DNA of 64,000 bases from a virus (IMGVR_UViG_3300047666_000603:9239-73238); one strand, 5' to 3'; counted from the first letter of the stretch, positions 3,370-58,671 are shown. The notes: generated from the letters alone by a model not told the origin. Program-made: numbers and translations.

Positions 3370-3600
3370 ATGAATAAGCCTGAAAATAGTTTAGATGTAG
3401 AGGATAAAATAGTTGATATAGTAACAGACCTTTTAAGGGATGATATAACCAAAACAGAAGCAATAGATAAGCTATTGATTTTACACAATGTTGTGGGGCG
3501 AAGCGAACAGTTAAAGGCTTTTGCTGAACACCTTGATGAAATGCATGGGGGTGAAGAATTTGCGGTAAATGAAGTTGAACCTTATTTAAAAAGCCTTTAA
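3370..3600 (+). CDS. Junction-spanning cassette ORF (LILHN-V-VGRSEQL)
   Basis: GTT 3490 read as Val; C-terminal half resembles that of ORF 49491-49715. Confidence 0.7.
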   Translation: MNKPENSLDVEDKIVDIVTDLLRDDITKTEAIDKLLILHNVVGRSEQLKAFAEHLDEMHGGEEFAVNEVEPYLKSL

Positions 3601-3669
3601 TTGCCTACAACGCTGAGTGTATGGCACGTTGCCAGCACTAACTTAATTAATAACACAAAGATTAAAGAT

Positions 3670-3888
3670 ATGGTAAAAGATAATTTAGAAAACGAACAGC
3701 AATGTGATATACACATTGTTAGGCATAGTTGCGAGATGATAACCGAAGAGTATGTTTATAAAAACGACTTTAGATTTCAACGAACACAGAAACACGGTAT
3801 TTGGTTTGTGACCTACGAAAACCACTTAATAACATTTGGACAATATAGACATGATTTAGAAGAATGGATTGATAGCAATTATGCCTAA
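3670..3888 (+). CDS. Junction-spanning cassette ORF (CDIHI-V-RHSC)
   Basis: ATG in hairpin loop, GTT 3718 in frame, stop in TAAC core. Confidence 0.7.
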   Translation: MVKDNLENEQQCDIHIVRHSCEMITEEYVYKNDFRFQRTQKHGIWFVTYENHLITFGQYRHDLEEWIDSNYA

Positions 3889-3990
3889 CGGTTTGGCTAA
3901 GATTACTAGCCTAAGTAATGAACTAATCAATTAAAAACTAAGCATCATAAGGCTATTAATTTTAGCCGTTGTTATGGTGCGTTAATTAAC

Positions 3991-4194
3991 TTGAAAATGA
4001 CAAAAGAAGAAAGGAATTTAGACCCACACAGACCTGCAAGATGCGCTATGTGGCTGTATGCTGACCAATATACTCAGCAGAAAGGTGGTAGTATGGATTT
4101 TTGGGATAAGCTATCTGATAGTGATAAAAACACTTGTAGAAGAATGGTAGAACAAATTTCTTGCACAAGACCTGAATCTGATGATGAGCGGTAA
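3991..4194 (+). CDS. Cassette-internal hypothetical protein
   Basis: Fills cassette 3971-4205. Confidence 0.7.
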   Translation: MKMTKEERNLDPHRPARCAMWLYADQYTQQKGGSMDFWDKLSDSDKNTCRRMVEQISCTRPESDDER

Positions 4195-4295
4195 TGCACC
4201 ATAACACCAAGAGAAGTGCCGTTACTTAATGGCATTTCTCGGCTGTTGGGCCGAGTTTTAATTCGGAATTTCTTTTATTTTCCATTTCCTCTACG

Positions 4296-4303
4296 TATAT
4301 TTG
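4296..4303 (+). promoter_or_regulatory. -7 box TATATTTG for the ligase/PNK/primase operon
   Basis: TAnnTTTG consensus 18 nt before ATG 4321. Confidence 0.6.
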
Positions 4304-4320
4304 GCAAAAATCTAAAACTT

Positions 4321-5214
4321 ATGGAGTTCAAAAAGTATATGCATCTTGAGCGTTTTGACGCAACAGAGGTGGAAAACATTGAAATAGGAACGTGCTATGT
4401 GTTCCCTAAAATAGACGGCACAAACGCTTCTGTTTGGCTTAATGACGCTGCTATTATCGCGGCGGGAAGTAGAACAAGAACACTTTCATTAGAAAAAGAC
4501 AATGCGGGGTTTTATGAGTTTGCTAGTCAATGTTCTGAGATAGCTGATTTTTTAGACTCCCACCCAACGCTTAGGCTTTACGGTGAATGGCTAGTTCCGC
4601 ACAGCCTCAAAACATACAGAGAAAACGCTTGGAGAGATTTCTACGTATTTGATGTAATGGATGATAGCGGAAGGTATTTACCTTATAATGAATACAAGTT
4701 GCTGTTAGATGAGTTTGATTTAAACTACATCCCGCCAATTAAAATCATCAAAAACGGAACATACGATGATTTTGTATTTCAAATGAACAGCAACAATAAC
4801 TACCTTATTGAAGACGGCAAGGGAATGGGAGAAGGTGTTGTGCTAAAGAACTACTCATTTGTAAATAAGTACGGAAGAACGACGTGGGCTAAAATAGTAA
4901 GTTCTGAATTTAAAGCAAAGCATCACAAAGAAATGGGTGCGCCCGAAGTGGAATATAAGATGGTGGAGAGTGATATTGTAGATAAATTCGTCACTCAAGC
5001 ATTATGCGAAAAAGTAAAGGCTAAAATAGAAATGGAGACAGGTGATTGGAAGTCGCAATACATCCCCCGACTATTAAACACTGTTTACTACGATTTAGTT
5101 AGGGAGGAAATGTGGGAGATAGTAAAGGAATTCAAGAAGCCTAAGATTGATTTTAAAACCCTTCAACACTTTACAAATAACAAGACAAAAGAACACTTAC
5201 CTAAAGTATTTTAA
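4321..5214 (+). CDS. RNA ligase, Rnl2-like nucleotidyltransferase
   Basis: Motif I PKIDGTNA, LYGEW, FYVFDV, GEGVVLK, WAKIV. Confidence 0.85.
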   Translation: MEFKKYMHLERFDATEVENIEIGTCYVFPKIDGTNASVWLNDAAIIAAGSRTRTLSLEKDNAGFYEFASQCSEIADFLDSHPTLRLYGEWLVPHSLKTYRENAWRDFYVFDVMDDSGRYLPYNEYKLLLDEFDLNYIPPIKIIKNGTYDDFVFQMNSNNNYLIEDGKGMGEGVVLKNYSFVNKYGRTTWAKIVSSEFKAKHHKEMGAPEVEYKMVESDIVDKFVTQALCEKVKAKIEMETGDWKSQYIPRLLNTVYYDLVREEMWEIVKEFKKPKIDFKTLQHFTNNKTKEHLPKVF

Positions 5215-5216
5215 AA

Positions 5217-6110
5217 ATGATAAGAGCATACATAGGAATTTCAGCGAGTGGGAAAACAACCCTTTGCAAGGGCGATATGAAATTAAATACTAATTCTGTT
5301 AGAGTTAATAGAGATGATTTACGTTTTGCTGTTTACGGTCTTGATTACGATTCTTACGGTGATTATTTTAAGCGTGATGATTTTTACAGGTGTGAGCAGT
5401 TTATATCTGATTTAGCGGATAGAATTGTTTCTCGCGCCATATCTAAGGGAAAAGATGTTTACATAGACAACACTCATCTAAAGCAAAAATATCTAAAGAA
5501 ATATTACACTTACGGAGTGGATGTTGAGCTTGTTTGGTGTGATGTAGATATTGATCTTGCGCTTCATAGAAACGTAAATAGAAAAGACCATTTTGTTGAC
5601 TCTGAAATAATCAAAAAGCAAAATGACTCTTATGAAATTATAAAGAAGAATTGGAAATCACCCGATGAAGTTGCGGAAAGAAAGATACATAATAACTCAT
5701 TAAAAAAGAAGTGTTACGTATTTGACATTGATGGAACGCTTGCAGATAAAGGAGATAGAAACCCCTATGATTATTCGCGTGTTTCAGAAGATGGTCTTAG
5801 AAATTCAGTTCTTGACGCTTATTTAGCCCATTCTTTTGACGGAAAAGAGATGATTATTTGTAGCGGAAGAGATAGTTCATGCAGAACAGAAACAGAGGAT
5901 TGGTTAACGAAGAACCAAGTTTATTACACCACTCTTTACATGAGGCAAGAGGGAGACTCAAGGGCTGATTGGAAAGTGAAAGAGGAGATGTGGGATGAGA
6001 TATGTAAAGATTATTATATAGTGGCTATGTATGATGATAGAAATCAAGTTGTAGACCACGCTAGGAGTCTTGGTTTTGATGTATTTCAAGTACAGGAGGG
6101 AAACTTTTAA
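5217..6110 (+). CDS. pseT: Polynucleotide 5'-kinase/3'-phosphatase (T4 PseT-like)
   Basis: P-loop GISASGKTT, RDDLR, HAD motifs DIDGT, SGR, DDR. Confidence 0.9.
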   Translation: MIRAYIGISASGKTTLCKGDMKLNTNSVRVNRDDLRFAVYGLDYDSYGDYFKRDDFYRCEQFISDLADRIVSRAISKGKDVYIDNTHLKQKYLKKYYTYGVDVELVWCDVDIDLALHRNVNRKDHFVDSEIIKKQNDSYEIIKKNWKSPDEVAERKIHNNSLKKKCYVFDIDGTLADKGDRNPYDYSRVSEDGLRNSVLDAYLAHSFDGKEMIICSGRDSSCRTETEDWLTKNQVYYTTLYMRQEGDSRADWKVKEEMWDEICKDYYIVAMYDDRNQVVDHARSLGFDVFQVQEGNF

Positions 6111-7873: not shown

Positions 7874-8062
7874 ATGTTATATTGGCATATGGAAAACAAA
7901 GAAATTTCGGTTCTTTTGAAAGAAAGACTACAAGACATTGAAAAAAAATTAAAAGGTAGAGATTTTTATTTAATTAAATATGTAAAAGAAGAGGTTATGA
8001 TGTCCTATTCTGATGGATATAAAGACGCTTCTGATGTTGCTAGAAAGATTTTTTACAAATGA
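7874..8062 (+). CDS. Small hypothetical protein
   Basis: ORF abutting the helicase gene. Confidence 0.5.
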   Translation: MLYWHMENKEISVLLKERLQDIEKKLKGRDFYLIKYVKEEVMMSYSDGYKDASDVARKIFYK

Positions 8063-9032: not shown

Positions 9033-9041
9033 AACAGCACT

Positions 9042-9155: not shown

Positions 9156-9160
9156 TTTTT

Positions 9161-9206
9161 AACACTAAGCTAAGTTCCGTTATTTCAATGGAATTTAGCG
9201 GCTGTT
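9161..9206 (+). repeat. Solo (empty) attC-like site
   Basis: AAC-actaa-gctaagttccgtt-atttc-aatggaatttagc-ggct-GTT; same layout as array-terminal sites at 4203, 16588, 26441. Confidence 0.75.
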
Positions 9207-9224
9207 AGAAGTTGTTTCTTTTTT

Positions 9225-11428: not shown

Positions 11429-11431
11429 TAA

Positions 11432-13625: not shown

Positions 13626-14798
13626 ATGAACGAAGAAACAAAGGACTTAAAAATGTGGTGTGTAGAACAGGCACTAACCGCTGCGGGCAAACAATACACA
13701 GGCCCGAACGAGGGATTCCCCGAATACCATAACAACACAACTCTCATCGAATTAGCAATCAAAATATACGACTTTCTCAAAGAAGATGGACACACAGACA
13801 CTAATTAACGCGATAGGGGATATTCATTTCCCTAATGAAAAAGCAATACTTAAAGTGAGGGCTTCGGTCTGGTATAAAAGCCTATCAATTAAGGAGAAAT
13901 CACAAACCGAAGAGGACGTAAGGAGGCTACTCGATCAAACACAAAAAGCTCTTTTAGGGGTGCATGAGGTTTACTCCACCCCATTTGACCGCATCACCAT
14001 ACTTTCAATGTTCCATGAGCCAGTGAATCTAATATGGAAAGAGGACAAAACGGTATTAAACGGTAAGCGGGTGAAGCGGCATTACTTCTCATTAGACAAC
14101 GTAGACTACAAGCCAAAAACAATAGCAGACTTTGTTAGTTTGATAGATAGCTTGGAAAGGCATAAGCTCACTCCTAAGTTTTCGGGGGATAAAAGCTCGG
14201 CAGCATTACTATGGAACAAGAGCCGCAATAACACTCAATAGCCATGAAGGGAGTAATTTCGGGAAAACAGAACAGCATGGAGGAAATCTACGTACACTAC
14301 ACAGACGAAGATGGGGAAGAACACACATCCATACATTTCGTAGACCCCGAACTAGCGAACTACATACAGGCGTTAGAGAATGACATAGAGGCGTTATCTA
14401 CGGAAGTGGAGGGCGCAGAGGATACAGCGGAGTATTGGAAACGAATGTTAACCGTCCACATCACAAGCGGAATAAAAGCTAACTAAATGGATTGTAAAGA
14501 GTTAAAAGTATTTTACGAAAAGGTGACGGAAAGCCCTCACTTTATGGTGTACCTCACATTGCAGAATAAGTTAAGGCAAGTGTGTGAGAGTTTCGATGGA
14601 GTGTTCATTGACATCACCTCCGACGACAAAACCTTTGACAACCTAATGAAGTTTAACAAGCAAGCATTAGACGTGTTAGAGGACATGGAGAAGATATGGA
14701 GCAAGATAGATTCATCAAAACAAGCGGAACTTCGAGCAAGCCAAAGGGAGGCGGGAGAAGCATCATTAGAAAGTATGCTAAAGAAATTCAGAGAATGA
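13626..14798 (+). CDS. Four small hypothetical genes (13626-13808, 13786-14241, 14244-14486, 14487-14798)
   Basis: Abutting co-oriented ORFs. Confidence 0.6.
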
Positions 14799-15971: not shown

Positions 15972-16056
15972 GAGGGTTAATTACAACGGTTTAAATATAG
16001 TGTCGTGGCGCACCCAATAAATGCCACTAAACTTAAAAATTGGTAAATATTTGATT

Positions 16057-16272
16057 ATGAAAAACAGACTTAAATTTAACCTGCGCTATGCACTATATTT
16101 TGTGTTGTGTGTAGTGCTTTTATCTAGCTGCGTTGAACGTAGGTGCTATGATGAAGAGCATATACTGTTAATAACCGAAAATGCCTTTTTAGAAGGATAT
16201 AAAGCAGCATTAATGAAGCAGCACCAAGATAGTGCGTGGAATAATGTGAAACAGCAATACAAGTTTGACTAG
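16057..16272 (+). CDS. Putative lipoprotein spanning a cassette junction
   Basis: MKNRLK..YALYFVLCVVLLSS-C lipobox. Confidence 0.6.
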   Translation: MKNRLKFNLRYALYFVLCVVLLSSCVERRCYDEEHILLITENAFLEGYKAALMKQHQDSAWNNVKQQYKFD

Positions 16273-16322
16273 TATTACACACAATGGACAAGGCTAAACG
16301 AAGTAATTTAAAAAGATTTGAA

Positions 16323-16589
16323 ATGATAAAACTAAAAGCAGAAGTAAACAAAAGTGCAGTAATGAGAGAATTACAAGCAAAAGCAATTGAAAGATTTAAA
16401 GACTCTTGGCAACCTGAATTACAAGTACAAGCCTACATGAATGGAGCGCATGACCTTTTTAAATTATTGCGTTTAGGTGATGTTAGCGTTTCGTTTACGG
16501 ATAGATTATTTGAAATAGCTTATGATTACGAATCTTCCGTAAGCGAACGAATGGAACAAATAAAGACCTTATTAGTAAATGAACGCTAA
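16323..16589 (+). CDS. Junction-spanning cassette ORF (LRLGD-V-SVSF)
   Basis: GTT 16482 in frame, stop in TAAC core; ORF track starts at 16284. Confidence 0.65.
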   Translation: MIKLKAEVNKSAVMRELQAKAIERFKDSWQPELQVQAYMNGAHDLFKLLRLGDVSVSFTDRLFEIAYDYESSVSERMEQIKTLLVNER

Positions 16590-16642
16590 CACCAAGCTAT
16601 AAAGCGTTTCAATGCTTTTATAGCGTCTGTTGTGATTTAATA

Positions 16643-25305: not shown

Positions 25306-25364
25306 CTCATAACGTTAAATGTAAAAAGCATTTTAATGATTTTTAAATAATGTTGTAAGTAGTT

Positions 25365-26431: not shown

Positions 26432-26503
26432 TTGCATCCCAACACCAAGAGAAGTGCCGTTTTTTCAATGGCATTTCTCGACTGTTGTGAGCATATTCTT
26501 TAC

Positions 26504-47183: not shown

Positions 47184-47211
47184 ACACAAATATAACCATT
47201 CCTTTTGTAAT

Positions 47212-47245
47212 AAAAAAGCCCCACGTTAATTAAAACGCAGGGCTT
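47212..47245 (-). terminator. Intrinsic terminator
   Basis: Minus strand agccctgcgtt..aacgtggggctttttt. Confidence 0.8.
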
Positions 47246-47266
47246 ATACAAACATAAACTAAAACA

Positions 47267-48565: not shown

Positions 48566-48828
48566 CTAGATTTGTTTTCAAGCATTCTTAGAACGGCGGG
48601 GAATAGGTGTTGTAATTGATTTACACTCACGCCGTTCTTTTCAGCTAAATCAGCCATGCAATTAGCTAAAGTAGCCTCAGATTCCTCGCCATCTTCAAAT
48701 AACCAGTTCTTCACGTATTTATGAGCGGGGTATATTTCCCTCACTCCTTTGTTATACTTAAATTTCAATACATCTTCCATTACAATAACGTTTAATTTGT
48801 TTGTGAGCCGTAAATTTACGAAATACAT
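48553..48828 (-). CDS. Hypothetical protein
   Basis: ORF track. Confidence 0.5.
   Translation of the reverse strand: MYFVNLRLTNKLNVIVMEDVLKFKYNKGVREIYPAHKYVKNWLFEDGEESEATLANCMADLAEKNGVSVNQLQHLFPAVLRMLENKSSWTK
48783..48818 (+). promoter_or_regulatory. Putative late promoter CAATAAC-N21-TAAATTTA
   Basis: Motif copy ahead of the isolated + strand gene pair. Confidence 0.65.
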
Positions 48829-48833
48829 TTGTA

Positions 48834-49199
48834 ATGGACAAGAATAAGCTCAATTTATACGGAATTATTATTTGTGTTGCCCTGCTATTAGTGGCTGTCG
48901 GCACAATAATAAACCAAGACGCTAAAATACACAATCTAAACGTGAGCCTCAAGGTGTATGAGAAGCAGCAAGAGCAATTAGAGACAGAGAAAGATGTTCT
49001 CCGCAAAGAAATTAAACAAAACGAGAAGCAAATAGCCAAGCTAGAGAAAGAACTAAATAAAATTCCTACAGATGCAGAGATTATTACTAACAGTCCTATT
49101 GTTTACGTCACTTACGATGATGTGTGGCGCACAATCACTCAACCTATCGAAGAGGCAATTAATTTCGTTCAACGGGGAGACAGTGTTATTCCTAACTAA
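48834..49199 (+). CDS. i-spanin-like protein (N-terminal TM plus coiled coil)
   Basis: TM IIICVALLLVAVGTII, long coiled coil, late promoter. Confidence 0.55.
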   Translation: MDKNKLNLYGIIICVALLLVAVGTIINQDAKIHNLNVSLKVYEKQQEQLETEKDVLRKEIKQNEKQIAKLEKELNKIPTDAEIITNSPIVYVTYDDVWRTITQPIEEAINFVQRGDSVIPN

Positions 49200-49494
49200 A
49201 GATCAAGCTGTAGCCCAAGCTAATTTCAATTTAGGGGCTTTTCAACTCCGCGAGAGATTTAAAACAGCCCTATTAAGAGAGGAGAAGCTGCATGAATTAT
49301 GGGCAAGCACCTCCCGCCAATTACAAACACAACAGACCCTCACAAAGAAAACAGAGGAGCAGCTTGCATTAAGAGAGCAGGAGATGAAGGACATTCAAAA
49401 AACCCATAAGAAAGAGAAACGTAAGAAATTCATCCAGAACACAGGGGTGGGGCTTGTAATTGGAATCGTGGGGACGCTGCTGTTAACCAATTAA
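49072..49494 (+). CDS. Spanin partner-like protein (signal peptide, coiled coil, C-terminal TM)
   Basis: Overlaps previous gene by 128 nt in another frame. Confidence 0.5.
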   Translation: MQRLLLTVLLFTSLTMMCGAQSLNLSKRQLISFNGETVLFLTKDQAVAQANFNLGAFQLRERFKTALLREEKLHELWASTSRQLQTQQTLTKKTEEQLALREQEMKDIQKTHKKEKRKKFIQNTGVGLVIGIVGTLLLTN

Positions 49495-49715
49495 GGTGTT
49501 TTTGTTTGTTCAAGGCTTTCTAAATACGCATCTATAATGTCATCGTTAATATCAGGGCAATTCCACTCATTACTAAGGTGGCTTGCAAAATCTTTTAACT
49601 GTTCTCTTTGCTCTACAACACTAAATAAAGCCAATACCTGATCCTCTAATTCAATAACAGGCATCGTTTCATCGTTGTAATATTCCTTAAACAGTTTTTT
49701 TATTTTTTCTTTCAT
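49491..49715 (-). CDS. Junction-spanning ORF (LALFS-V-VEQREQL)
   Basis: Starts in hairpin loop; GTT read as Val. Confidence 0.7.
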   Translation of the reverse strand: MKEKIKKLFKEYYNDETMPVIELEDQVLALFSVVEQREQLKDFASHLSNEWNCPDINDDIIDAYLESLEQTKTP

Positions 49716-49922
49716 TGGTACAGTCTTTATTATTTTCGTTGGTAGTAATTATATTTGCTTCCATTTCCAATTAGAAGAATCCTCTTCTTTACTTTGGCAC
49801 ATAAATACGCTATAAGATTCTCTCCAACTTGTTAAGTAGGTAACACCCTTAGGGTCTTGTACTATTAATTCAGTACTTTTAGGAGGCTCTTGGTCTTTAA
49901 CGCAAATAAAACTATTGCCATC
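49491..49922 (-). mobile_element. Relic cassette array 5
   Basis: Hairpin 49740-49617 (arms aataaagactgtacc / ggtattggctttatt); cassette 49922-49738 with mutated GAT core. Confidence 0.6.
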
Positions 49923-50087
49923 AACGGGTGCGGTTAATGCTTTCTTTAGTTTTTTAAGATAATTATCTAAATTGCAATCTTCATTTTGCACACCCTTATT
50001 GTATACCTCAAACAGTATCTCTTGTTCTTTTGTTAGTTTTACTTCTCTCATTTTCATGTTGTTTTTGTTTGTTAAGCAAATATACAT
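49749..50087 (-). CDS. Hypothetical protein crossing a degenerate core (APV-D-GNSF); DUF551-like C-terminus
   Basis: ORF; FICVKDQEPP...WKWK. Confidence 0.6.
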   Translation of the reverse strand: MYICLTNKNNMKMREVKLTKEQEILFEVYNKGVQNEDCNLDNYLKKLKKALTAPVDGNSFICVKDQEPPKSTELIVQDPKGVTYLTSWRESYSVFMCQSKEEDSSNWKWKQI

Positions 50088-50101
50088 AGAAAAACATTCA
50101 T

Positions 50102-50142
50102 AAAAAAGAAAAGCCTCACAAATTAATGCAAGGCTTCTCTTT
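50102..50142 (-). terminator. Intrinsic terminator followed by TATATTTG box (50084-50077)
   Basis: Minus strand agccttgca..tgtgaggcttttc. Confidence 0.7.
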
Positions 50143-50168
50143 TAAACTCTACGTTAAGAGCCTATCTA

Positions 50169-50733
50169 TCAAGAACCGCAGGAAAGGCAAAACCCGTCCT
50201 CAATGTCACAAACATTTTTTTTTCCCTGCAAGTCATTCAGCTTATGTTTAAGCCTTTTAATAATGTTAGAGGTGACGTGTCTATCCTCTTCATCCATACT
50301 TGAGAGTGAAATTGTTAGTAATTCAATCTTCTTTGCAATAGCTAATTGTTCTTCCATAAATGCTGTCATTAAATTTTAGTGTTAGAGGGGAAAGGTACGT
50401 AATTGTTTTGGTTGTTTGTTATTAGCCCCAGAATTTCTTTCTACGCTCATTCTTTCCCCGTGATGTTAAATGCCAACGCCCTTCTGGACATTGATAGACG
50501 CGATGTGGCTTGTTGCTTCTCATGTGCTTGTCTCTCTGTATTTCATGCAGACGTAATGTAGCTTGCTCTTCCGTGGGGAACGTCTCCTTCCCGCAACATT
50601 TAACAGCAACATCAAACACCTCCTCACATTCCACCACCTCTGTCTCTCTCCTCATCTTCCTTACGAGTTCTTGTAGCCTTCTATTGGGCGTTTTCTTTAT
50701 TCGCGGGAGAGCTAAGAACTCTTTAAGAGTCAT
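50169..50733 (-). CDS. Two small Cys-containing genes (50169-50369 ending CLSCGS; 50422-50733)
   Basis: ORF track; YQCPEGRWHLTS motif in the second. Confidence 0.6.
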
Positions 50734-50888
50734 TGTACGCCCTCCAACACTCTACTTTGTAACACCTTCCTAATAATAGCCTCCACATGAGAGGGATAGG
50801 AATAGAACACTTTAGGGATTGTGTCAGACATTACAAGAGCGTGTATAGCGTCCTTAATTTCATTCTCTGTTAGTTCTTTCATTGTTTT

Positions 50889-51281
50889 CTAGTTTAAATA
50901 TCCGTTCTCTCTTGCCCATTTAGGAGAAACGTGATGTATTTCATGGTGACACGGGCGACATAATGCCATAACATTAGTGAAGTCGTTTAGCTTATCCTCC
51001 ATACGCCCTCCTTTGTGATGGATGTCTGTTGGATTTGGTGTGCCGCATATTTCACAGACACCATGCTCTTTCAAATAAGCCTCTCTAAGCACCTTATAAG
51101 CTGTTTGCTGCTTCTTTCTCTTGTCGCTGATAGGCTTTATAGGTTTACGCTTTAAGGGGGCTACGTTCTGTTGTAATGGCTTCGACTTACTCTTAGCCAC
51201 ACAATCCATACACCCCACCTTACGATTCCATAGGAATTTCTCCTCTCCACAGGTGGGGCATATTTTCTTTTTAGCTTTCAA
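50889..51281 (-). CDS. HNH endonuclease-like protein
   Basis: CEICG..DIHH..N..ALCRPCHHEIH. Confidence 0.85.
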   Translation of the reverse strand: MKAKKKICPTCGEEKFLWNRKVGCMDCVAKSKSKPLQQNVAPLKRKPIKPISDKRKKQQTAYKVLREAYLKEHGVCEICGTPNPTDIHHKGGRMEDKLNDFTNVMALCRPCHHEIHHVSPKWARENGYLN

Positions 51282-52575
51282 CTCTTGTATAATTCAAACT
51301 CATAAACCACGTGTAGTTTTCCGTTGTCGCGCTTTATTAGATAATCATGCCTCCCTGTTTCGATTATAGTGGCGTTGGTTCTATAATGTCGCTTCAACCT
51401 ACTATGTATAGATATTTTTACTCTGTCACCCACTTTAAACCTTTCTTGTAGAGGTGTACTATACCCCCAATTATTATCGAATAGATTTAACAACACCCAT
51501 AATATTCTTATCATGTCTTTTGTTTTAAGTTAAAATAAGTATTCCGCGCAAATTAAAAGCCCCATAATAGCTCCAAACAAGCCCATCATAAGCCCTTCCT
51601 CTGCTTTCATTTCATTGTAGCGTGGAGAATTGAGCCACCACTTAACCCAACGTCTAAACGCTTGTCTCCTTTGTACTCTCAAGAGCTTCTTCATTGTCGT
51701 TGGTCTTAATTTCAAAAGCATTCTCAACGAGGTCACAATAAGACTTATAGCTTTCCACTAAACTATCAGCGTATGCCTCATTCTGTTTATTCAATGTAGC
51801 CAACATCCTGTCGTAATGCATTGTAAGGGACTTGGCTGTTATTTTTAGCTGCCCCTTAAACAACCCTCCGTAAATAGGATGCTCTCTAAGCTCATTCATA
51901 TTATCCGTAATATACATTAACGAAATGAGTGTAAGGGCTGCCCTCTTGTCTATTTCTTCCTTCATGTTTGTTTTGTTTTAAGCTCTTCGCCCGTTAGGGA
52001 ATAAAATAGATTTTGAAGCGTGTGAACTTCCTTCACTGTACGTAAGCACCAAGTATTGCCATCCACCTCACTAAATGAAAACACTCTTTTTGTGTTCGGT
52101 TGGTATAAGAGATCAGCGCGAAGGCTTTGTATTAGAAACGACCTAATATCTCTATGGGTAATCTCGTTAAACCCAAACTTCAACAACCACTCTTCTGTTA
52201 AGGGGATTGGAATAAGTTCGTCCTCTCCTTTAGTGATTTCTGTTACTGCGGTTACATACACATAATTAGGTGCAATAGTTGTAACTCTATAGTTCATTTC
52301 GCACAACTCATTGGTAGTAGTGTCTATTGCATTAACCAAATTCCCAATCCTTAATTCTATTGCTTTCATTTCCCTTGATTTATTGCCTCCATAGGAACGG
52401 CGTAAATAATTGTAATTGCAATAGAACACACTATCATCATAGCCTTAGCCTCCAAATTCCAATTCAAAACATCTGCATTACCAAAGACAAACATCCCTGA
52501 TAATACAAACATAATGAATATAACAAACATAAAACAAGCGTACAATGCTATTTTCTTGATTCTTCTCTTAGTCAT
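51278..52575 (-). CDS. Five small genes (51278-51514, 51530-51736, 51654-51965, 51962-52429, 52366-52575)
   Basis: Coupled ORFs; 51962 has ELRIGNLV..PIPLTEEWLLKFGF..LQNLFYSLTGEEL; 52366 has 2 TM. Confidence 0.65.
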
Positions 52576-53141
52576 TACGATGTGATGTATTTATACTTGT
52601 TTGTAGCGTGTTCTATCAACTCTTCTACAGATTGTATGTTTCTTGCTGTTGTTTCATCTGCGGCGGCGTGTAGGGCTGTCTGTCGGCTTATCATAAGGCT
52701 TGTTTTCGGGTCATCCCATTTCAATAGCGGCCCGTCAATATCACCTAGAACATAAGCTGCAATAGTGTTGCATCCCTTCCCGTCTATAAGAACGTGTTGG
52801 TGTATTCCGTTTACGGTTCCTGCGGCCTTTACAGCAGAGCCTTTAGCCATGCGTTTGAGTTCTTCTAACGATGTCACCTTCTCTTTAAAACCACCACCTT
52901 TATTTCCACCTCCTGTAAAGGCTTCTCTCACTACTTTGCACTTCCACCCATATTCACCCTCATTAGCCTCCACTTCTATCTGTTGGCCAACGGCAATATG
53001 TTTAGCGTCTTTTTCTTTAGCCCCGATGTTAAGTAAATGCTCACACCCCTCTATTTTAATGTCATGGAAATACGTTATCCCTTTCGGCCCTGGCCATTCC
53101 TTCTTAAATGCTGACTGTGTAATCTTTCCTTTTACTACCAT
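52575..53141 (-). CDS. Putative ssDNA-binding/recombination protein (OB-like N-terminus)
   Basis: KGKIT..WPGPKG.TYFHDI; lies near exonuclease and SSB. Confidence 0.4.
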   Translation of the reverse strand: MVVKGKITQSAFKKEWPGPKGITYFHDIKIEGCEHLLNIGAKEKDAKHIAVGQQIEVEANEGEYGWKCKVVREAFTGGGNKGGGFKEKVTSLEELKRMAKGSAVKAAGTVNGIHQHVLIDGKGCNTIAAYVLGDIDGPLLKWDDPKTSLMISRQTALHAAADETTARNIQSVEELIEHATNKYKYITS

Positions 53142-53168
53142 TTGTTTATTGTATTTGGGGTTAATTGT

Positions 53169-53939
53169 TTAGTAAATATCAATTTCTGTCATGTCACAAC
53201 TATACTCATCCTCAAGGTACATATCAATAAACTCATTAGCCATATCACCTTTGAGTTCAAATTTAGGCTTATTTTGCTCTTTTTCCGCCTTTCTAATAAT
53301 CATTTTAAGGATGTTTCTGAGGTGTGATAACTCTAATTCATCAACGTTTATTTTTACCCCTTGTTTTGTTGTCCAAAAATATTCCATATCCTTATTGTAT
53401 TTGGTTCATCACTTGTTCATACACATAATCAGAGTCATCATTGATCTCGTCAAGTTGTGCTTCTGTCATTTTCTTGCCGTCATAATCCGCGCTGTAAATG
53501 AAAGCGTTAGAAAAATCAGGGTAGTCTGACGTATTAATACCGTCCACCTCTACGTTGTCTATTTTACTTTTGTCCATTTTGTTTAGTTAAGTGCTTTTTC
53601 GATTGCTGCTTCTGCGTTGCCTACTCTAATGTGCTGAGCATTATCAATGTCGTCTCTATTAAAAACTAAAACCATTTCCTGCAAAGCCTCAAGCAAGTCA
53701 GGCGCGGCGGCTATTAGTTTGGCGTTGGCTTCCCACTTCTGAGTCGTTTCATTGTTACCCCATCCTTGATTTTCTGAATCTGTGGCATAATCTACATTGC
53801 AAATAATTCTACCCGTATTGTCGTGTACGCTTATTTGATTGTGATAAAACTCTTTACTTCCGTCTTCGAATCGAGAAAATAATGCGCTTTCAAAAGCTCG
53901 CCTTTGTTTCCACTCGCCTTTTGTTCCTTTAAATTCCAT
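53169..53939 (-). CDS. Three small genes (53169-53387, 53392-53577, 53583-53939)
   Basis: ORF track; last has the common phage motif ANAKLIAAAPDLLEAL. Confidence 0.7.
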
Positions 53940-53951
53940 GTTTATTGTTTT

Positions 53952-54701
53952 TTATTGTTTATAATTTCCATTCTCAGGGCAAGCCGTTTGCCCACAAATA
54001 TTTTTGCACCAAAACCAAGAAGGCTTCTTCTCCCATTTGGTTTCTGCTTCTATCTTCCCCGCGACATCATCCACCCAAGCAGCCACCTTATTGTATTCCT
54101 TTAAATCAAACACCTCTGTTAGCTTCTCATTATATCTAGCCATGTAAAAGCTCATGCTCTTTGGGTATTTGCCGTATTTCTCTTTGACATATCTCGCATA
54201 GATGTAGAGTTGGCGTTTCTTAGTTTCAAACTTCTTGCCGCGAAACCCATCAATACCAGAGGTTTTCCAATCCCAAATATAGTAATCTTTCCCGTCAAAA
54301 AGAACTAAATCAGCAAATAATTTCACCTTTCTCCCACTAATTGTAACAACACCCTCACCTTCTATACCCACCACTTCACCCTCAAACTTAGCAAATACAT
54401 CAGGGAGATGGTCAAGGAAAGCAATACATTCATTCACCCATTTCTCAGCATATTCCTTCCTCATATTGTCAAAGGATAGAATAGGCGTTCCAAAATAAAA
54501 CCAATCCGATGCTTCTGAGTGTAATATAAGCTCTTTGAGGACATTTTCTACAGCTTCATGTAGAAAGCTTCCGCCCGTAGACCAATCGTTCCCAATTTCA
54601 GGTAGTTTTAGGTTATAGGTGCAATGATAGCTGAATGGGCAAGTTTCAAACTTATCAAGACGGGAATAGCTATATACCTTCTCTTTAATCATAAGCAACA
54701 A
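53952..54701 (-). CDS. PD-(D/E)XK exonuclease (Cas4/RecB-like, Fe-S Cys)
   Basis: SYSRL...CP, ADLV, DWKTS, QLYIY, CKNIC...CP. Confidence 0.85.
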   Translation of the reverse strand: MLLMIKEKVYSYSRLDKFETCPFSYHCTYNLKLPEIGNDWSTGGSFLHEAVENVLKELILHSEASDWFYFGTPILSFDNMRKEYAEKWVNECIAFLDHLPDVFAKFEGEVVGIEGEGVVTISGRKVKLFADLVLFDGKDYYIWDWKTSGIDGFRGKKFETKKRQLYIYARYVKEKYGKYPKSMSFYMARYNEKLTEVFDLKEYNKVAAWVDDVAGKIEAETKWEKKPSWFWCKNICGQTACPENGNYKQ

Positions 54702-54990
54702 CTATTTCATTGTAAATAACACCCATATCTCTTAATGTAGGATAAAGAGCATCCCGAACTAAGTCCTCAACATCATTCTCATTGTATTCATCGTTAAATT
54801 CAGCGTATGCTTTAAAGCAATTCCCGCCAACATCCCTAAACGAAATAAAAGGTGTAGGGAATGAGCTATTAAAAAACTCCTTTATCTTCTCCCTATCTGA
54901 TTCGTGTATAATAAAGGAGACAGTGATGGAGAAGTGTTGTAGAGACATTTCACTCTCTGGTGTAGATTGTTTGTAGTCGTCCAAATTCAT
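54685..54990 (-). CDS. Hypothetical protein
   Basis: ORF track. Confidence 0.55.
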   Translation of the reverse strand: MNLDDYKQSTPESEMSLQHFSITVSFIIHESDREKIKEFFNSSFPTPFISFRDVGGNCFKAYAEFNDEYNENDVEDLVRDALYPTLRDMGVIYNEIVVAYD

Positions 54991-55051
54991 GTTGTTTGTT
55001 TTTAAATAGCCCCGACCATATTGCCGAGGCTATAATGTTGTTAATCAGTTG

Positions 55052-55417
55052 TTAGAATGGTAAATCATCTTCACCATCCAATATAGGGCTTGTTGTTCCT
55101 CCCGATTGATCTGCAAAAGCTTGCTCCTGACTAGCAAAAGCATCTTTCTTTACGCTAGAAGATTTAGTCACCTTCCAGCCCTCGATGTTGCTGTAGAATT
55201 TGCCAGAATGTTCCCTCCCGCGCAAATTAATAGCAACCTCCACCTCATCACCCTCATTCACACTGTCTAGTAGTGCTATTCTATCCTGTGTAAATTCGAC
55301 GGGAACGAACTGTGGGTATTTTTCATTGGGGTCTGTAATCACCACCACCCTTTTCTTAAACTTGTCGCTAATTTGCTCTATTGGCAATAGCTTGTGTACT
55401 TTTCCTGTAATCTCCAT
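55052..55417 (-). CDS. DUF3127-type single-stranded DNA-binding protein
   Basis: MEITGKV, FKKR, YPQFV..EFTQD, NLRGRE, acidic DDLPF tail. Confidence 0.88.
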   Translation of the reverse strand: MEITGKVHKLLPIEQISDKFKKRVVVITDPNEKYPQFVPVEFTQDRIALLDSVNEGDEVEVAINLRGREHSGKFYSNIEGWKVTKSSSVKKDAFASQEQAFADQSGGTTSPILDGEDDLPF

Positions 55418-55421
55418 TTAT

Positions 55422-55769
55422 TTATTTGTTTTTCACGATTTTAAATTCTTCTCCAAGTTTCTCTTGAAGCTGCTCTATTGTGTATTCCTTCACCTTATGG
55501 TTACGCTTCCAAATTAAATGCCCATCCCTTGCCTCAAGCATATCGGAAGCATCCTCTCCCCACCAAACTTTGTCTATAGAGTACTCGCAAAGTTCATACT
55601 CCAAGTCTGAATTGAAGCCACCATCGAAAGTCATCCATCCATCTCCTGTTGTATTTTCGTTTTTAACAGATTTACCTGATAATTCACCCACTTTATTTTT
55701 AAACAATAGGTATCTGTTCCCATTCCTTGTTTCAACTAACATTCCTGATTCTAATTCACTTCTTTTCAT
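55422..55769 (-). CDS. Hypothetical protein
   Basis: SELESGMLVETRNG; C-terminal YTIEQLQEKLG; TATATTTG box at 55801-55794. Confidence 0.7.
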   Translation of the reverse strand: MKRSELESGMLVETRNGNRYLLFKNKVGELSGKSVKNENTTGDGWMTFDGGFNSDLEYELCEYSIDKVWWGEDASDMLEARDGHLIWKRNHKVKEYTIEQLQEKLGEEFKIVKNK

Positions 55770-55822
55770 TTGTTTAGATTATTGATTTGTTTACAAATAT
55801 ACGCATTAAATTCCTTAATACA

Positions 55823-56062
55823 CTAAAAAGGCAGCCCTAAATCTCTTATTCCCTTCACGGCCATCATTTGCTTTCCGATCTTAATCTTTCGGTAACACTT
55901 ACTTGCTTTAACTCCGTTTGGGCTTATCTTGTTTCTCCTTGCTATCTCTGAAATGGTGTCCACTCCTGAAAGTTTTGCGCTTAGTTCCAAAACTGTAACC
56001 AAAAACGAAACGTCTTCAGATTCGCTTATTTGTTTAAGTGTCTGTAATTGAGAATCGTTCAT
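55823..56062 (-). CDS. Small HTH-like protein after the last core of array 4
   Basis: TISEIARRNKISPNGVK. Confidence 0.5.
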   Translation of the reverse strand: MNDSQLQTLKQISESEDVSFLVTVLELSAKLSGVDTISEIARRNKISPNGVKASKCYRKIKIGKQMMAVKGIRDLGLPF

Positions 56063-56133
56063 GGTTACAAATTTATAATTACGCTTATGATATGTTGGGT
56101 CGCATTAGATTAGAAACGTAAAACATAGATAGA

Positions 56134-56913
56134 ATGAACCACACGGAAAAACTTAAAGGGTATATAAACGAACTAAAAGAGGAGTTAAAGAAATCCCTGA
56201 TTAACAAATACGGAGAGGAAAACGAGAAGAGTATTGGATGTGATATTGACATTCAGACGATACCGATAAGAAATACTTCGGCGTTTCATTACGATAGGTC
56301 AGCGCACCAATTTGACGCGGAAATAGAAATCATTTTGACTGAGATTAATAAGAAGTATTTTAGTGAAGAGGGGTAGTTAGATTTACCTTAAACGATTTAT
56401 CAACGGAAACAGTTTTACCACTTCCGTTTTCAATACTGAAAAAAATGTTTGATTCACTTAATTCCTCCACAGCTTTTTTTATTTGACTTTCTAGTGCGTA
56501 AATATTAAACAACTCCTTAACGTCTATTGAATTTGGTGCTTTATCCATTCTCCAAATTTACTACCTTGACTAACCAACCTTGTTATTGAAATATGAAACG
56601 AAAAGTGATTTATCCAAAATCAGATGTAGAAAGTTCGGAAAAAATATACGCCAAGGTATTTTCAGACAAAAATAAGTTTGTCGTTAAAGAAAAGGAAGCG
56701 CAGCTATTTGGCAGGGCTTATAATGGTGAAAAGATATACGAGCCTTATGTGCTAGAGGTTTTTTTATTTTGGTTGCTATCACCCCGTAAGTTTTTCTTAG
56801 AAATTTGGTCAGACCTAACGATTGAGCGTAAAATAGATATTGTGTTTAATGTATTAGCTACTACAACAAGCATCATTGCTATTATTATAAGTGTCATTGC
56901 TTTGAATAAGTGA
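56134..56913. CDS. Three ORFs inside one cassette (56134-56376 +, 56360-56548 -, 56593-56913 + with C-terminal TM)
   Basis: ORF track; within cassette 56094-56940. Confidence 0.55.
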
Positions 56914-57097
56914 ATAAAAAAAATAAATACGCGCCCCAACAAAACCTATACTGCATAGCCTTCGGCATACGCAGCATAGCTTAAGCGTTGGCATTCATTT
57001 AGACAATTCTCTCCAGTAATTTATTTTATCACGGTCGGACATGAATGCAGATGCAGTTCCGCACAATTCGTAAAAATCCATTTTTAATATTTCTGTA

Positions 57098-57340
57098 TCA
57101 GTCATTTTTCAATCCCTCTTTTTTGCAAAAACTAACCATCTTGTCTTTTAACCATTTTCTATGTTCTTCGTCTCCATGTTCAATTTCTGTAAATAGCTGC
57201 ATTATCTTTGTACAGGCAAATTGATTCATCGCATCAATCGCATCAGGATATTTAACATACCCCGTTTCATCATTGTCAAGTTCATCGGTTTCGTTAAACC
57301 ACTCTCTTCCAAATTTTGTTATGTATTCTCTTGCTTCCAT
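57098..57340 (-). CDS. Cassette hypothetical protein (HGDEEHRKWLK motif)
   Basis: Within cassette 56987-57363. Confidence 0.7.
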   Translation of the reverse strand: MEAREYITKFGREWFNETDELDNDETGYVKYPDAIDAMNQFACTKIMQLFTEIEHGDEEHRKWLKDKMVSFCKKEGLKND

Positions 57341-57438
57341 AAAATCAAAAACGAAATGCCAACATTGGCTAAAAAGCATAGCCGCAATGTCAGCGGGTTA
57401 TTGAGGCGTATTACAGGCTACGCTTCTTAGCCTTACCG

Positions 57439-57729
57439 TTATAAGCAATAACGAGTGTTCCACTTATCAAGGATGCTTTGCCAATGCCACTCAAACATAG
57501 GTGAATATGTTATGGTATCTCCTTTATTTTCTACGCATTCCACACTTTCATAAACACTTGGTCTTGTGTGGCAATCGTTGTTATTGCAAGTTATTTCAAC
57601 GGTTGATGGCACATAGTTTTTATCTACATTTGGTTTTTCTCCACAGAAGGGGCAAGGTAAAGCACTGCTTATAACATTAGCTATACTCAATGCCTTAATT
57701 TCTGCTTTTTTTGAAGTTTCTTGTTCCAT
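57439..57729 (-). CDS. Lar-like (restriction alleviation) zinc-ribbon protein spanning a junction
   Basis: LPCPFCG...C....C...WNTR; starts in hairpin loop, SIAN-V-ISS, stop in TAAC core. Confidence 0.7.
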   Translation of the reverse strand: MEQETSKKAEIKALSIANVISSALPCPFCGEKPNVDKNYVPSTVEITCNNNDCHTRPSVYESVECVENKGDTITYSPMFEWHWQSILDKWNTRYCL

Positions 57730-57803
57730 TTTAATTTTTGTTTTATAAGTTATCTTAGTTTTTCAAATGTCGGCACTAAGCATAGCCAAACCGTTGTAGC
57801 CAA

Positions 57804-58267
57804 TTAAGACCAAAACCCTTTTTCAATCATCCAATCACTTATTTTCTTTATTTCAGTCCATAGCAATATCAAAGAGTCTGTATCTTTTAAATGGTCTGTC
57901 ATATCATTTGCTTTTATATCATCATCATTTTCAAGTGATTTAGGATATATCAAATCATATAATTCAATCTTTTGTTCTTTCGTTAATTCTTTCATTTTTC
58001 GTTTATTAAAATAACTGGCTACAACAACGTGTATAGCACATTAAAACGATGCCATACACACAGCGTTGTGGTGCATTAGATATACGGCATATAACTACTT
58101 TGACCTTTAGCCTTTTCTAATTCTAAATCAGCATGAAGGGAAAGTATTTCTTTTTCTCTTTCAATTACTCTTTTTGCGTAGGCATCTAAGCTAAATTCTT
58201 TCCATTCACCATTTGGTGTGTGCTTATAATATAATCTACCTTCAATCCATTTTTCTGCGTAATACAT
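57804..58267 (-). CDS. Two single-ORF cassettes (57804-57995; 58076-58267)
   Basis: Each ORF fills its cassette. Confidence 0.7.
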
Positions 58268-58500
58268 AGTTCTTTAATTTAACGCACCTAACATTAAATA
58301 AAAATGCATTGAAACGACATTTTATTAAGGTCGTTGGGATGCAATTAAAAAAGACATACAACAATAAATATAAGTAATGGGTGTGGTATGCTGTCGGGAT
58401 TATTCTTACAATATAAAACAGCCCTTACAAAGTCACCGTGCTTATAGCAGTTCATCCACCCACTACTCATATTTTTTGCCGTTAGCAACCATTAAAACGG

Positions 58501-58671
58501 TCACTTCGTTTTGCTAACAACGGGTATAGCAAATGTATTTAACTTATTTTTTAGCTCTATTAATGCTTTTTCTGTTAAGAAGCTTTTTAGTTCGCCAAGT
58601 TGTACTACATATTTAATAGCTTTGTTACTGCTATATTTGTCTTTGTCTGTTTTCAATCTTACTTCAATCAT
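58501..58671 (-). CDS. 56-aa leader ORF of array 4 ending FAIPV-V-SKTK
   Basis: Read by eye, ATG 58671 to TGA 58501; crosses core at 58518. Confidence 0.55.
   Translation of the reverse strand: MIEVRLKTDKDKYSSNKAIKYVVQLGELKSFLTEKALIELKNKLNTFAIPVVSKTK

What the first reader, a model, noticed from the sequence alone, without database searches (positions are those of the whole stretch)
3370..58671. ORFs start inside the recombination-site loop and fuse in frame with the next cassette
Seen: start codons and N-termini lie in or upstream of the hairpin loop, and the GTT core is read as in-frame Val in LHN-V-VGR (3490), IHI-V-RHS (3718), LGD-V-SVS (16482), IAN-V-ISS (57675), IPV-V-SKT (58518) and LFS-V-VEQ (49619). 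Two mutated cores keep the same phase (GE-A-VER 3089; PV-D-GNS 49922). Several downstream modules, including the Lar-like domain, have no obvious start of their own. Inference: a conserved phase means swapping cassettes yields new N-module/C-module chimeras and translation depends on the upstream neighbour, i.e. combinatorial protein assembly that canonical short non-coding attC sites do not provide.
Basis: partly seen in the sequence, partly recalled or inferred. Interest (0 to 1): 0.88.

Follow-up and report, generated by a model that had tools for sequence, protein, structure and literature searches.

The report
Phage genes starting inside integron-like sites
In this phage, many small genes begin inside folded, integron-like recombination sites and read through the site's conserved GTT as a valine, and related phages carry swapped front and back halves of such genes, a layout not described for bacterial integrons.

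Summary
The window is most of a 73-kb phage genome of a Flavobacteriia-type host, and it has no recombinase gene. All eight cited codons are present and in frame.

**Sites supported.**
- Two sites (3718, 57675) are 3' ends of folded sites. These sites match a covariance model I built from an 80-kb cassette array in a Bacteroidales chromosome. That array ends 376 nt from a tyrosine recombinase.
- Four more have partial support: 3490, 16482, 58518 and 3089.
- Sites 49619 and 49922 have none.

**Architecture.** Each site reads TAAC, 5 nt, a ~16-nt arm, a loop holding the ATG and the first 14-40 codons, the matching arm, 3-5 nt, then GTT. The gene body that follows is bracketed by its own GTTA...TAAC inverted repeat, which ends at the stop codon.

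**Phase and shuffling.**
- Phase is biased. In 11 of 21 model-defined sites an ATG inside the site reads across GTT in frame 0. In 28 of 38 body starts the same frame is entered from an upstream ATG that I did not check to lie inside a site.
- Shuffling is real. One 32-aa head is joined to about 20 unrelated bodies, and one body to at least 10 heads.

**Not shown.** Site-specific exchange at G|TT, any dependence on the upstream neighbour, and any function for the chimeras. In two of three families the head usually travels with its own body. This scan has noted the same site family before on other DNA.

The parts
3370..3600 (+). ORF of 76 aa. The head (residues 1-41, ending at GTT 3490-3492) is followed by a body that is a paralogue of the body of ORF 49491-49715.
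   Evidence: The head is conserved in 30 other proteins and 14 loci. Homology ends at residue 41-42 in 11 of 14 loci. Differences at codon positions 1/2/3 are 191/134/343.
3490..3611 (+). Weak bracket (8 pairs, 1 G.T) around the body of ORF 3370-3600.
   Evidence: Eight pairs alone are near chance.
3605..3727 (+). Folded site. 5' arm at 3617-3632. The loop holds ATG 3670. 3' arm at 3699-3714, then spacer ATT, then the GTT core at 3718.
   Evidence: 15.6 bits, E 0.018; p=0.008; 16-pair helix in 9 loci, 9 pairs with compensatory changes.
3718..3889 (+). Body of ORF 3670-3888, bracketed by 15-pair arms. The stop codon TAA lies in the closing TAAC.
   Evidence: (score 40). In the contigs of run X2 the interior is exactly absent (joint 3721->3886).
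3883..3980 (+). Compact folded site with no start codon in its loop.
   Evidence: 34.7 bits, E 2.5e-8; fold.
3971..4205 (+). Bracket of 14 pairs enclosing ORF 3991-4194.
2977..3079 (+). Long-range helix (2977-2992 with 3064-3079) enclosing ATG 3035 of ORF 3035-3256. The cited GCT at 3089 follows it.
   Evidence: (p=0.008). No model hit over this helix. A weak hit at 2974-3026 (E 1.9) covers a different local hairpin.
15981..16113 (+). Folded site with the start of ORF 16021-16272 in its loop. Here the GTT is crossed out of phase.
   Evidence: 34.9 bits, E 2.3e-8; frame 1.
16294..16476 (+). Long-range helix (16294-16315 with 16455-16476) inside ORF 16284-16589, just before the cited GTT at 16482.
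   Evidence: p=0.006; score 41.
16482..16590 (+). Bracket of 10 pairs from the cited GTT to the TAAC that holds the stop codon of ORF 16284-16589.
57666..57799 (-). Folded site with the start (57729) of the Lar-like ORF in its loop. The GTT core is at 57675.
   Evidence: 24.3 bits, E 3.9e-5; score 38, p=0.004; frame 0, 18 codons before GTT and 78 after.
57438..57675 (-). Body of the Lar-like ORF 57439-57729, bracketed by 13 pairs (2 G.T). The stop codon lies in the closing TAAC.
57354..57444 (-). Compact folded site directly after the Lar-like body.
   Evidence: 29.7 bits, E 8.9e-7.
57793..58071 (-). Very compact site (58016-58071) followed by a 14-pair bracket (58025..57793) that encloses ORF 57804-57995.
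   Evidence: 27.6 bits, E 3.7e-6.
58353..58518 (-). Cited GTT at 58518 opens an 8-pair, 38-nt 'empty' bracket (58518..58481), inside which ORF 58501-58671 stops. A folded site follows at 58353-58487.
   Evidence: score 49; E 0.014.
49491..50087 (-). ORFs 49491-49715 and 49749-50087, holding cited codons 49619 and 49922. No folded site or bracket was found here.
4203..4247 (+). One of four compact hairpins (the others are at 9161-9206, 16588-16631 and 26441-26486). All share the AAC...GTT ends. They look like minimal forms of the site.
   Evidence: 4 found, 0.10 expected; (9157-9213, E 0.0048; 16584-16638, E 5.1).

Best explanation
The cited codons lie in an integrase-less array of integron-like cassettes. 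The folded sites belong to a family that is also found in Bacteroidota chromosomes.

**Site and body.** On the gene's sense strand each site reads TAAC, about 5 nt, a roughly 16-nt arm, a variable loop, the matching arm, 3-5 nt, then GTT(A). The following gene body is closed by its own GTTA...TAAC inverted repeat, and the stop codon usually sits in the final TAAC.

**Orientation.** In the phage the genes lie on the strand that folds. In the one bacterial array I examined they mostly lie on the other strand. As a result the loop of each phage site carries the translation start and the first 14-40 codons. The ORF then has to read through the 3' arm, the spacer and the GTT core, which is translated as Val.

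**Unit and exchange.** The usual inherited unit seems to be the site plus its downstream body. Heads and bodies have also been re-assorted at or within about 20 nt of the GTT in natural populations.

**Shown:** site family membership, helix covariation, phase bias, the existence of chimeras, and a tyrosine recombinase beside the bacterial array.

**Inferred:** that the sites recombine as folded single strands, that a host enzyme does this on phage DNA, and that the fused proteins are made.
For: **Family membership.**
- A covariance model was built from 6 sites of a Bacteroidales chromosomal array.
- It finds 10 places in the window at E <= 0.018. All are on the local gene-sense strand. They include the sites that end at cited GTTs 3718 and 57675.
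- With the default speed filters on, it also finds 11 places in 30 related sources.

**The bacterial array.**
- Its repeats span about 80 kb, G006:C1:2547097-2627110.
- It ends 376 nt from a 383-aa tyrosine recombinase. That enzyme scores 178.5 bits on TIGR02249, 192.7 bits on the NF040815 model for a tyrosine recombinase / integron integrase, and also hits PF13495 and PF00589.
- Its sites share the phage's TAAC / 5 nt / arm ... arm / 3 nt / GTTA layout.

**Helices.**
- 16 pairs in 9 loci, 9 of them with compensatory double changes.
- 14 long-range pairs in 12 sequences.

**Body brackets.**
- Brackets were found in 28 hand-listed units.
- One compensatory change is seen in the bracket.
- G.T pairs outnumber A.C pairs on the sense strand, 66 to 28.

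**Phase.**

**Chimeras.**

**Population variants at site edges in other samples.** Joints 3721->3886, 3513->3598, 3367->2916 and 4247->3269.

**Print.**
- attC clusters without an integrase in virulent phages, including a Polaribacter phage, have been published (PMC9892861, passages read).
- Integrons are reported in Bacteroidota (PMC8618304, one passage read).
Against: - No tyrosine recombinase or serine recombinase in this complete genome. No tyrosine recombinase in 5 related records, two of them at least 92% complete.
- The bacterial recombinase scores below NCBIfam's integron-integrase cut-off (178.5 against 265). I did not test for the IntI-specific insertion.
- I examined only one bacterial array. 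The model rests on 6 near-identical sites (effective number 1.42), so its E-values are rough.
- Genome-wide counts of brackets are not above chance: 41 observed against 35.5 simulated for 10 or more pairs, and 5 against 2.3 for 13 or more.
- Homology breakpoints are not at one fixed point. They fall at TAAC, at GTTA, and at the 5' edge of the 3' arm.
- The joint 3721->3886 is symmetric within the inverted repeat. It is not the G|TT-to-G|TT excision expected of an integron.
- The G.T pairs lie on the mRNA-sense strand in the phage, so an RNA role cannot be excluded.
- Two cited sites have no structure.
Confidence: 0.62

Rival explanations
1. The helices act in the mRNA, not in DNA. On this view each small cistron is folded so that its start region and its ends are paired, controlling translation, processing or stability. 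Head/body shuffling would then be ordinary recombination between the short conserved arm sequences, as proposed for the promoter/stem-loop cassettes of T4-type phages.
For: - G.U-type pairs sit at fixed positions on the sense strand: 8 of 9 sequences at two positions, and 66 G.T against 28 A.C overall.
- In one family the 5' arm ends 4 nt before the ATG.
- Breakpoints at the 5' edge of the 3' arm fit crossovers within shared arms.
- An exonuclease of a recombination type is encoded at 53952-54701.
- The phage has no recombinase.
- PeSL papers PMC2839356 and PMC4122927: titles and the starts of the abstracts, as shown in the search listing, were seen.
Against: - In the bacterial array the same site polarity lies on the strand opposite the genes in three of its four brackets. 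The asymmetry therefore belongs to the site and not to the transcript.
- That array abuts a tyrosine recombinase.
- Breaks exactly at TAAC and at GTTA, with no shared flank beyond 4-5 nt, are too short for homologous exchange.
- The phage encodes no RNase III.
- The two readings can coexist.
Confidence: 0.17
2. The bodies are small mobile or deletion-prone modules bounded by inverted repeats. They would be gained and lost at a GTTA|TAAC palindrome by cruciform- or hairpin-directed breakage or template switching, without an integron-type enzyme.
For: - The joints 3721->3886 and 3513->3598 remove the interior symmetrically and leave GTTA next to TAA.
- Heads and bodies each behave as discrete units with breaks on both sides.
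- An 'empty' 38-nt bracket is present at 58518..58481.
Against: - The joints rest on single contigs of low depth with only 24-25 nt on the shorter side.
- This reading does not explain the second helix type, the conserved spacers, or the link to recombinase-flanked arrays.
Confidence: 0.1
3. Chance and selection by eye. GTT is a common Val codon in an AT-rich phage, and the reader picked in-frame examples next to weak palindromes.
For: - 7 of 8 sites fold at background locally.
- No site passes a DNA-only complementarity test.
- Strict box searches and bracket counts are near the simulated values.
- Sites 49619 and 49922 have nothing. Site 16104 breaks the phase rule.
Against: Covariation, model hits, the phase counts and the sharp homology breaks in two protein families cannot be chance.
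Confidence: 0.05

Closest known systems
Integron gene cassettes and attC sites, including clusters of attC sites lacking an integrase (CALINs), which have been reported in virulent phages (PMC9892861)
   Same: - Folded sites with two paired boxes separated by unpaired spacers and a variable loop.
- Only AAC...GTT is conserved at the ends.
- Cassette ends are complementary to each other.
- The sites form arrays of small accessory genes.
- A tyrosine recombinase sits at the end of a bacterial array of the same site family.
- The phage copies lack an integrase.
   Different: - The ORF starts inside the site's loop and crosses the GTT core in frame.
- Genes lie on the folding strand, opposite to the bacterial array examined.
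- Body brackets are 10-17 pairs long, with a G.T pair at position 11, rather than the 7-nt core I recall for attC.
- No extrahelical bases were seen.
- The bacterial recombinase scores below the integron-integrase cut-off.
- Breakpoints fall at three positions rather than one.
Fused integron cassettes (PMC4670013; title and start of the abstract seen in the search listing)
   Same: An ORF runs from one cassette into the next.
   Different: According to the part of the abstract that I saw, such fusions are rare and arise from partial or total loss of an attC. Here the intact site is itself coding, and the arrangement is the rule: 11 of 21 sites.
PeSL promoter/stem-loop cassettes of T4-type phages (PMC2839356, PMC4122927; titles and starts of the abstracts seen in the search listing)
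   Same: Short conserved structured elements between small accessory phage genes at which modules are shuffled.
   Different: PeSLs are non-coding promoter-terminator motifs and their exchange is homologous. Here the elements enclose coding sequence and have AAC/GTT cores. Sigma-70-like promoters and terminators are not enriched in the window's small-gene region: 45 against 50.9 and 7 against 11.2.
Capsid-targeting leader of T4 internal proteins
   Same: A conserved short N-terminal peptide joined to many unrelated small proteins.
   Different: There is no evidence here for cleavage or packaging. In this phage the conserved ends of the heads are explained by the nucleotide sequence of the 3' arm.

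Membership tests
Integron attC site / CALIN | Conserved AAC and GTT triplets at the two ends of the site (the consensus RYYYAAC ... GTTRRRY is recalled). | tested here: met
   - Sites found by protein homology, not by motif, carry GTT at the junction in 20 of 20 rows and in 10 of 12.
- The body ends in TAAC in 13 of 14 rows.
- Only 1 of the 6 cited cores fits the full GTTRRRY consensus (my reading).
Integron attC site / CALIN | Two paired boxes separated by unpaired spacers, closed by a variable loop. | tested here: met
Integron attC site / CALIN | Extrahelical bases in the inner box that set the strand choice (recalled). | tested here: not met
   None was seen. Fixed G.T pairs mark the polarity instead.
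Integron attC site / CALIN | The first bases of a cassette are complementary to the inverse core of its own site. | tested here: met
   3718..3889 (15 pairs), 57675..57438 (13 pairs), 16482..16590 (10 pairs).
Integron attC site / CALIN | Match to the attC covariance model of IntegronFinder or to HattCI. | not testable with these tools
   These models are not available here. Rfam at gathering thresholds gave nothing. My own model, built from a bacterial array, does match.
Integron (complete) | An IntI integrase with its specific extra domain next to the array. | tested here: not met
   No PF00589 in the phage or in 5 related records. The bacterial array has a tyrosine recombinase, but it scores below the TIGR02249 cut-off (178.5 against 265), so that case is inconclusive.
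Integron (complete) | Recombination between G and TT of the core. | not testable with these tools
   Breakpoints in relatives lie at TAAC, at GTTA and about 20 nt upstream of GTT. The contig joint 3721->3886 is not of the core-to-core type.
PeSL cassettes of T4-type phages | An early promoter combined with a terminator stem-loop in a non-coding spacer. | tested here: not met
   Promoter-like and terminator-like sites are not enriched in 47000-64000. The elements enclose coding sequence.
Lar restriction-alleviation protein (PF14354), for ORF 57439-57729 | Score at or above Pfam's gathering cut-off. | tested here: inconclusive
   23.2 bits against a cut-off of 28.6. PHROG 599 gives E 2.5e-6. PF14354 is listed among the precomputed domains of this protein and of 17 of 24 relatives.

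The most novel reading that the evidence does not exclude
In Bacteroidota phages the integron-like cassette is a split-gene device. The recombination core is kept in one reading phase so that site-specific exchange at the Val codon joins any head (start plus N-terminal module) to any body. This would generate new chimeric small proteins, plausibly counter-defence proteins such as the Lar-like one, at a rate far above ordinary mutation.
Probability: 0.28. Interest if true: 0.9.

Novelty: new variant of a known kind. Interest (0 to 1): 0.72.

Why it matters
Integron sites are taken to be short non-coding recombination signals that follow a gene. Here a related site family carries the translation start and the N-terminus of the next gene, and its conserved core is translated.

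- **Annotation.** The true starts of many phage ORFans lie inside what tools would mask as repeats. Cassette boundaries cut through genes.
- **Sequence features explained.** It accounts for conserved peptide endings such as x-I-x-x-V and for Ser always being encoded by AGY after the Val.
- **A testable route to new proteins.** The data show a concrete natural route by which small phage proteins acquire new N- or C-terminal parts.
- **Link to bacterial arrays.** If exchange is enzyme-driven, it ties phage accessory-gene turnover to large cassette arrays in Bacteroidota chromosomes that carry defence genes such as AbiTii. That would be a direct gene-flow channel between the two sides of the arms race.

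Tried and rejected
**Leads that failed or were dropped.**
- A direct-repeat search found no repeated site family.
- Megablast of 25 kb against phage records gave no match.
- Local 61-nt folding and DNA-only arm complementarity argued for an artefact. I held that reading until. The tests were underpowered because the helices are long-range and contain G.T pairs.
- An AACA...TGTT constrained-fold scan was too noisy to use.
- An nhmmer profile of the four compact hairpins found only those four.
- A strict R/L-box search gave 11 hits against 8.0 simulated. Bracket counts gave 41 against 35.5. Neither is significant genome-wide.
- ARAGORN and Rfam found nothing.
- The search for related loci with single proteins (primase-helicase, exonuclease) found no relatives.
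- tblastn against phage records found nothing for ORFs 16284-16589 and 49749-50087, so those two junctions could not be tested by homology.
- The body of ORF 3670-3888 gave only 2 loci in viral contigs.
- No RNase III, reverse transcriptase or serine recombinase is encoded in the genome.
- No RNA holder was listed among the sequencing runs, so expression could not be examined. All runs laid were contigs, so parts without cover mean nothing.
- I considered and set aside these readings. For the first five, no tool result pointed to the reading; each reason in brackets is my own judgement, not a test:
  - RiPP leader peptides (some bodies look like globular domains);
  - diversity-generating retroelements (no reverse transcriptase; replacement is wholesale);
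  - invertons;
  - IS200/IS605 ends;
  - REP elements;
  - an RNA-ligase/kinase splicing idea, suggested by genes 4216-6110 but without any evidence.

**Print searches.** Searches found no paper that describes ORFs starting inside attC-like sites of phages. The supplementary tables of PMC9892861, which list its 17 phage CALINs, were not seen and may include relatives.

Full report
**What the window is.** The window is bases 9239-73238 of a 73,238-base virus record whose last 127 bases repeat its first 127. Small genes run on the minus strand in 47-64 kb and in the first 1.7 kb. Larger genes run on the plus strand in between, and GC skew follows this division. The nearest cultured relatives are phages of Maribacter, Cellulophaga and Flavobacterium, at about 25% protein identity. 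There is no close DNA match among phage records.

**Checking the observation.** My first tests pointed to an artefact:
- no repeated site family appeared;
- 7 of 8 sites folded no better than background 61-nt windows;
- no site had an upstream complement above that of 1,996 control GTTs under DNA pairing rules;
- the genome has no tyrosine recombinase.

A note from the same scan pointed to four compact hairpins. These are real: 4 matches against 0.10 expected, with covarying stems. That made me look at relatives.

**Homology breaks at the Val.**
- The 76-aa ORF 3370-3600 has 30 database relatives. They share only its first 41 residues, at roughly 80% identity. After the Asn-Val they continue in about 20 unrelated ways by my count of the alignment.
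- In 14 viral loci the tblastn match ends at residue 41 or 42 in 11 cases.
- The DNA alignment shows a block of about 155 nt with sharp ends, at a TAAC on the left and at GTTAG on the right.
- Differences within the block favour third codon positions (191/134/343), so the head is translated.
- The converse holds for ORF 3670-3888. Its last 55 residues are nearly invariant in 36 relatives, while the part before the Val ranges from 13 to about 60 unrelated residues.
- One relative (P0003) joins a different head to the body of ORF 3370-3600. ORF 49491-49715 shares that same body.
- The Lar-like ORF 57439-57729 has relatives with short, fast-changing heads of one general type.

**The structure.**
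- In 9 loci of the 3670-3888 family, RNAalifold predicts a 16-pair helix. It joins an arm about 50 nt upstream of the ATG to the codons just before the Val. Nine of the 16 pairs show compensatory double changes, and G.U occupies two fixed positions in 8 of 9 sequences.
- The 3370-3600 family has a 14-pair helix whose 5' arm ends 4 nt before the ATG.
- With G.T pairs allowed on the sense strand, four cited sites pass against 500 control GTTs: 3089, 3718, 16482 and 57675 (p 0.004-0.008).
- A genome scan found 54 long-range helices against 27.6 in simulations. It also showed a chain of them across 2977-4247.
- One of these pairs the first 15 nt of the 3718 body with its last 15 nt, including the stop codon.
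- Such GTT...AAC brackets start at cited GTTs 3490, 3718, 16482, 57675 and 58518, and recur in relatives.
- The regular layout is: 3' arm, 3-5 nt, GTTA, 6 variable nt, GT ... AT, 6 nt, TAAC, G plus 4 nt, next 5' arm.
- Counted genome-wide, short brackets are not above chance. The weight rests on position, conservation and covariation.

**What family this is.**
- The scan's earlier notes describe TAAC/GTTA integron-like arrays in Bacteroidota phages and chromosomes. I tested that lead myself.
- A 14-nt motif from the window picked up a Bacteroidales chromosome with four brackets in 8 kb. In three of the four brackets the genes lie on the opposite strand. Nearby genes on that strand include AbiTii, an S41 peptidase and a Bro-N protein.
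- Its repeats fill about 80 kb and stop 376 nt from a 383-aa tyrosine recombinase. That enzyme resembles integron integrases and Xer proteins but scores below both curated cut-offs.
- Its sites have the same TAAC / 5 nt / arm ... arm / 3 nt / GTTA plan.
- A covariance model built from six of them hits the window 10 times at E <= 0.018, always on the gene-sense strand. The hits include 3605-3727 and 57666-57799, whose 3' cores are the cited GTTs 3718 and 57675.
- With the default speed filters on, the model also hits 11 sites in related loci.

**Phase.**
- Of the 21 model-defined sites, 13 contain an ATG that opens a frame of at least 5 codons before and at least 15 codons after the GTT. Eleven of these are in frame 0, one in each other frame. 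Five of the eleven belong to one family.
- Of 38 bracket starts that I listed are entered in frame 0 from an upstream ATG. Only 4 and 1 are entered in the other frames with at least 8 codons. By my hand count about 16 of 26 independent units are frame 0.
- Frame +1 is closed by TAG or TAA when the core is GTTAG or GTTAA, so the null expectation is nearer one half than one third.
- Site 15981-16113 is a clear exception.

**Mechanism.**
- The link to a recombinase-flanked array, the self-complementary cassette ends, and breaks at 4-5-nt cores with no shared flanks all favour structure-directed DNA recombination of the integron kind.
- The site polarity lies on the antisense strand of most genes in the bacterial array but on the sense strand in the phage. 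The G.T asymmetry is therefore a property of the site. It follows that phage genes are inverted relative to bacterial cassettes (one array examined).
- This orientation places the start codon in the loop.
- By analogy with what I recall of integrons (cleavage in the AAC of the folded strand), the phage cassette would be the site plus its downstream body. That fits the 3670-3888 and Lar-like families, where the short head stays with the body while the downstream neighbour varies.
- It does not fit the promiscuous 3370-3600 head, which has no fixed neighbour on either side.
- Contigs from other samples show variants at site edges:
  - exact absence of the 3718 body's interior (3721->3886);
  - a similar 3513->3598 joint;
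  - back-joints 3367->2916 and 3360->2925;
  - a complete hairpin where the window has a truncated one (4247->3269).
  These rest on single low-depth contigs, and their geometry is not that of a classical excision.

**Against the strong reading.**
- The phage has no recombinase. Five related records searched for a tyrosine recombinase also had none.
- Breakpoints are of three kinds.
- The 3718 body has a nearly invariant internal Met, and one relative has a stop just before the Val.
- Most heads are short polar peptides whose last residues are dictated by the 3' arm.
- Sites 49619 and 49922 have no structure.
- No expression data exist.

**Novelty.** CALINs in virulent phages and integrons in Bacteroidota are in print (PMC9892861, passages read; PMC8618304, one passage read). 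This scan has noted the site family in many genomes. My searches found no description of genes that start inside the site and cross the core in frame, nor of natural head/body chimeras at that point.

Noticed in passing
window 25352-25491: A strongly folded non-coding stretch with a tRNA-like T-arm is bracketed by an 18-nt GTTG...CAAC inverted repeat, like a cassette whose cargo is an RNA. ARAGORN and Rfam call nothing there.
   Followed up: partly
window 9225, 16643, 21460, 26504, 31779 (+); 56588 and 57586 (-): The motif CAATAACAA occurs 7 times (1.4 expected). Six of the seven copies lie about 32-56 nt before an ORF start, and the seventh lies inside ORF 57439-57729. In several cases a Bacteroidota-type TAnnTTTG box follows about 20 nt later, so this is probably a phage promoter element. 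Three copies sit just after the compact hairpins.
   Followed up: partly
window 4216-6110: An RNA ligase gene and a polynucleotide kinase gene lie side by side directly after the first cassette row. This is a tRNA-repair-type pair.
   Followed up: no
window 13786-14241 and 34132-40461: The N-terminus of a 151-aa ORF resembles residues 1110-1154 of the 2109-aa protein (48% over 52 aa, E 1e-8).
   Followed up: no
L112 and L158 (Bacteroidales chromosome, G006:C1:2547097-2628600): An array of about 80 kb of about 130-160-nt folded sites. Genes next to and between its brackets include AbiTii, an S41 peptidase and a Bro-N protein. It ends next to a 383-aa tyrosine recombinase transcribed in the same direction as the cassettes.
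   Followed up: partly
window 7941-7974: In all four runs laid, a short stretch has very high summed contig depth (70-227) with loose ends on both sides. It may be a repeat shared with other genomes.
   Followed up: no
window 2986-3013 and 3064-3070: The word GTCCAGT can pair either with ACTGGAC at 3007-3013 (a local hairpin followed by TTT) or with ACTGGAC at 3064-3070 (the long-range helix around ATG 3035). These are two mutually exclusive folds.
   Followed up: no
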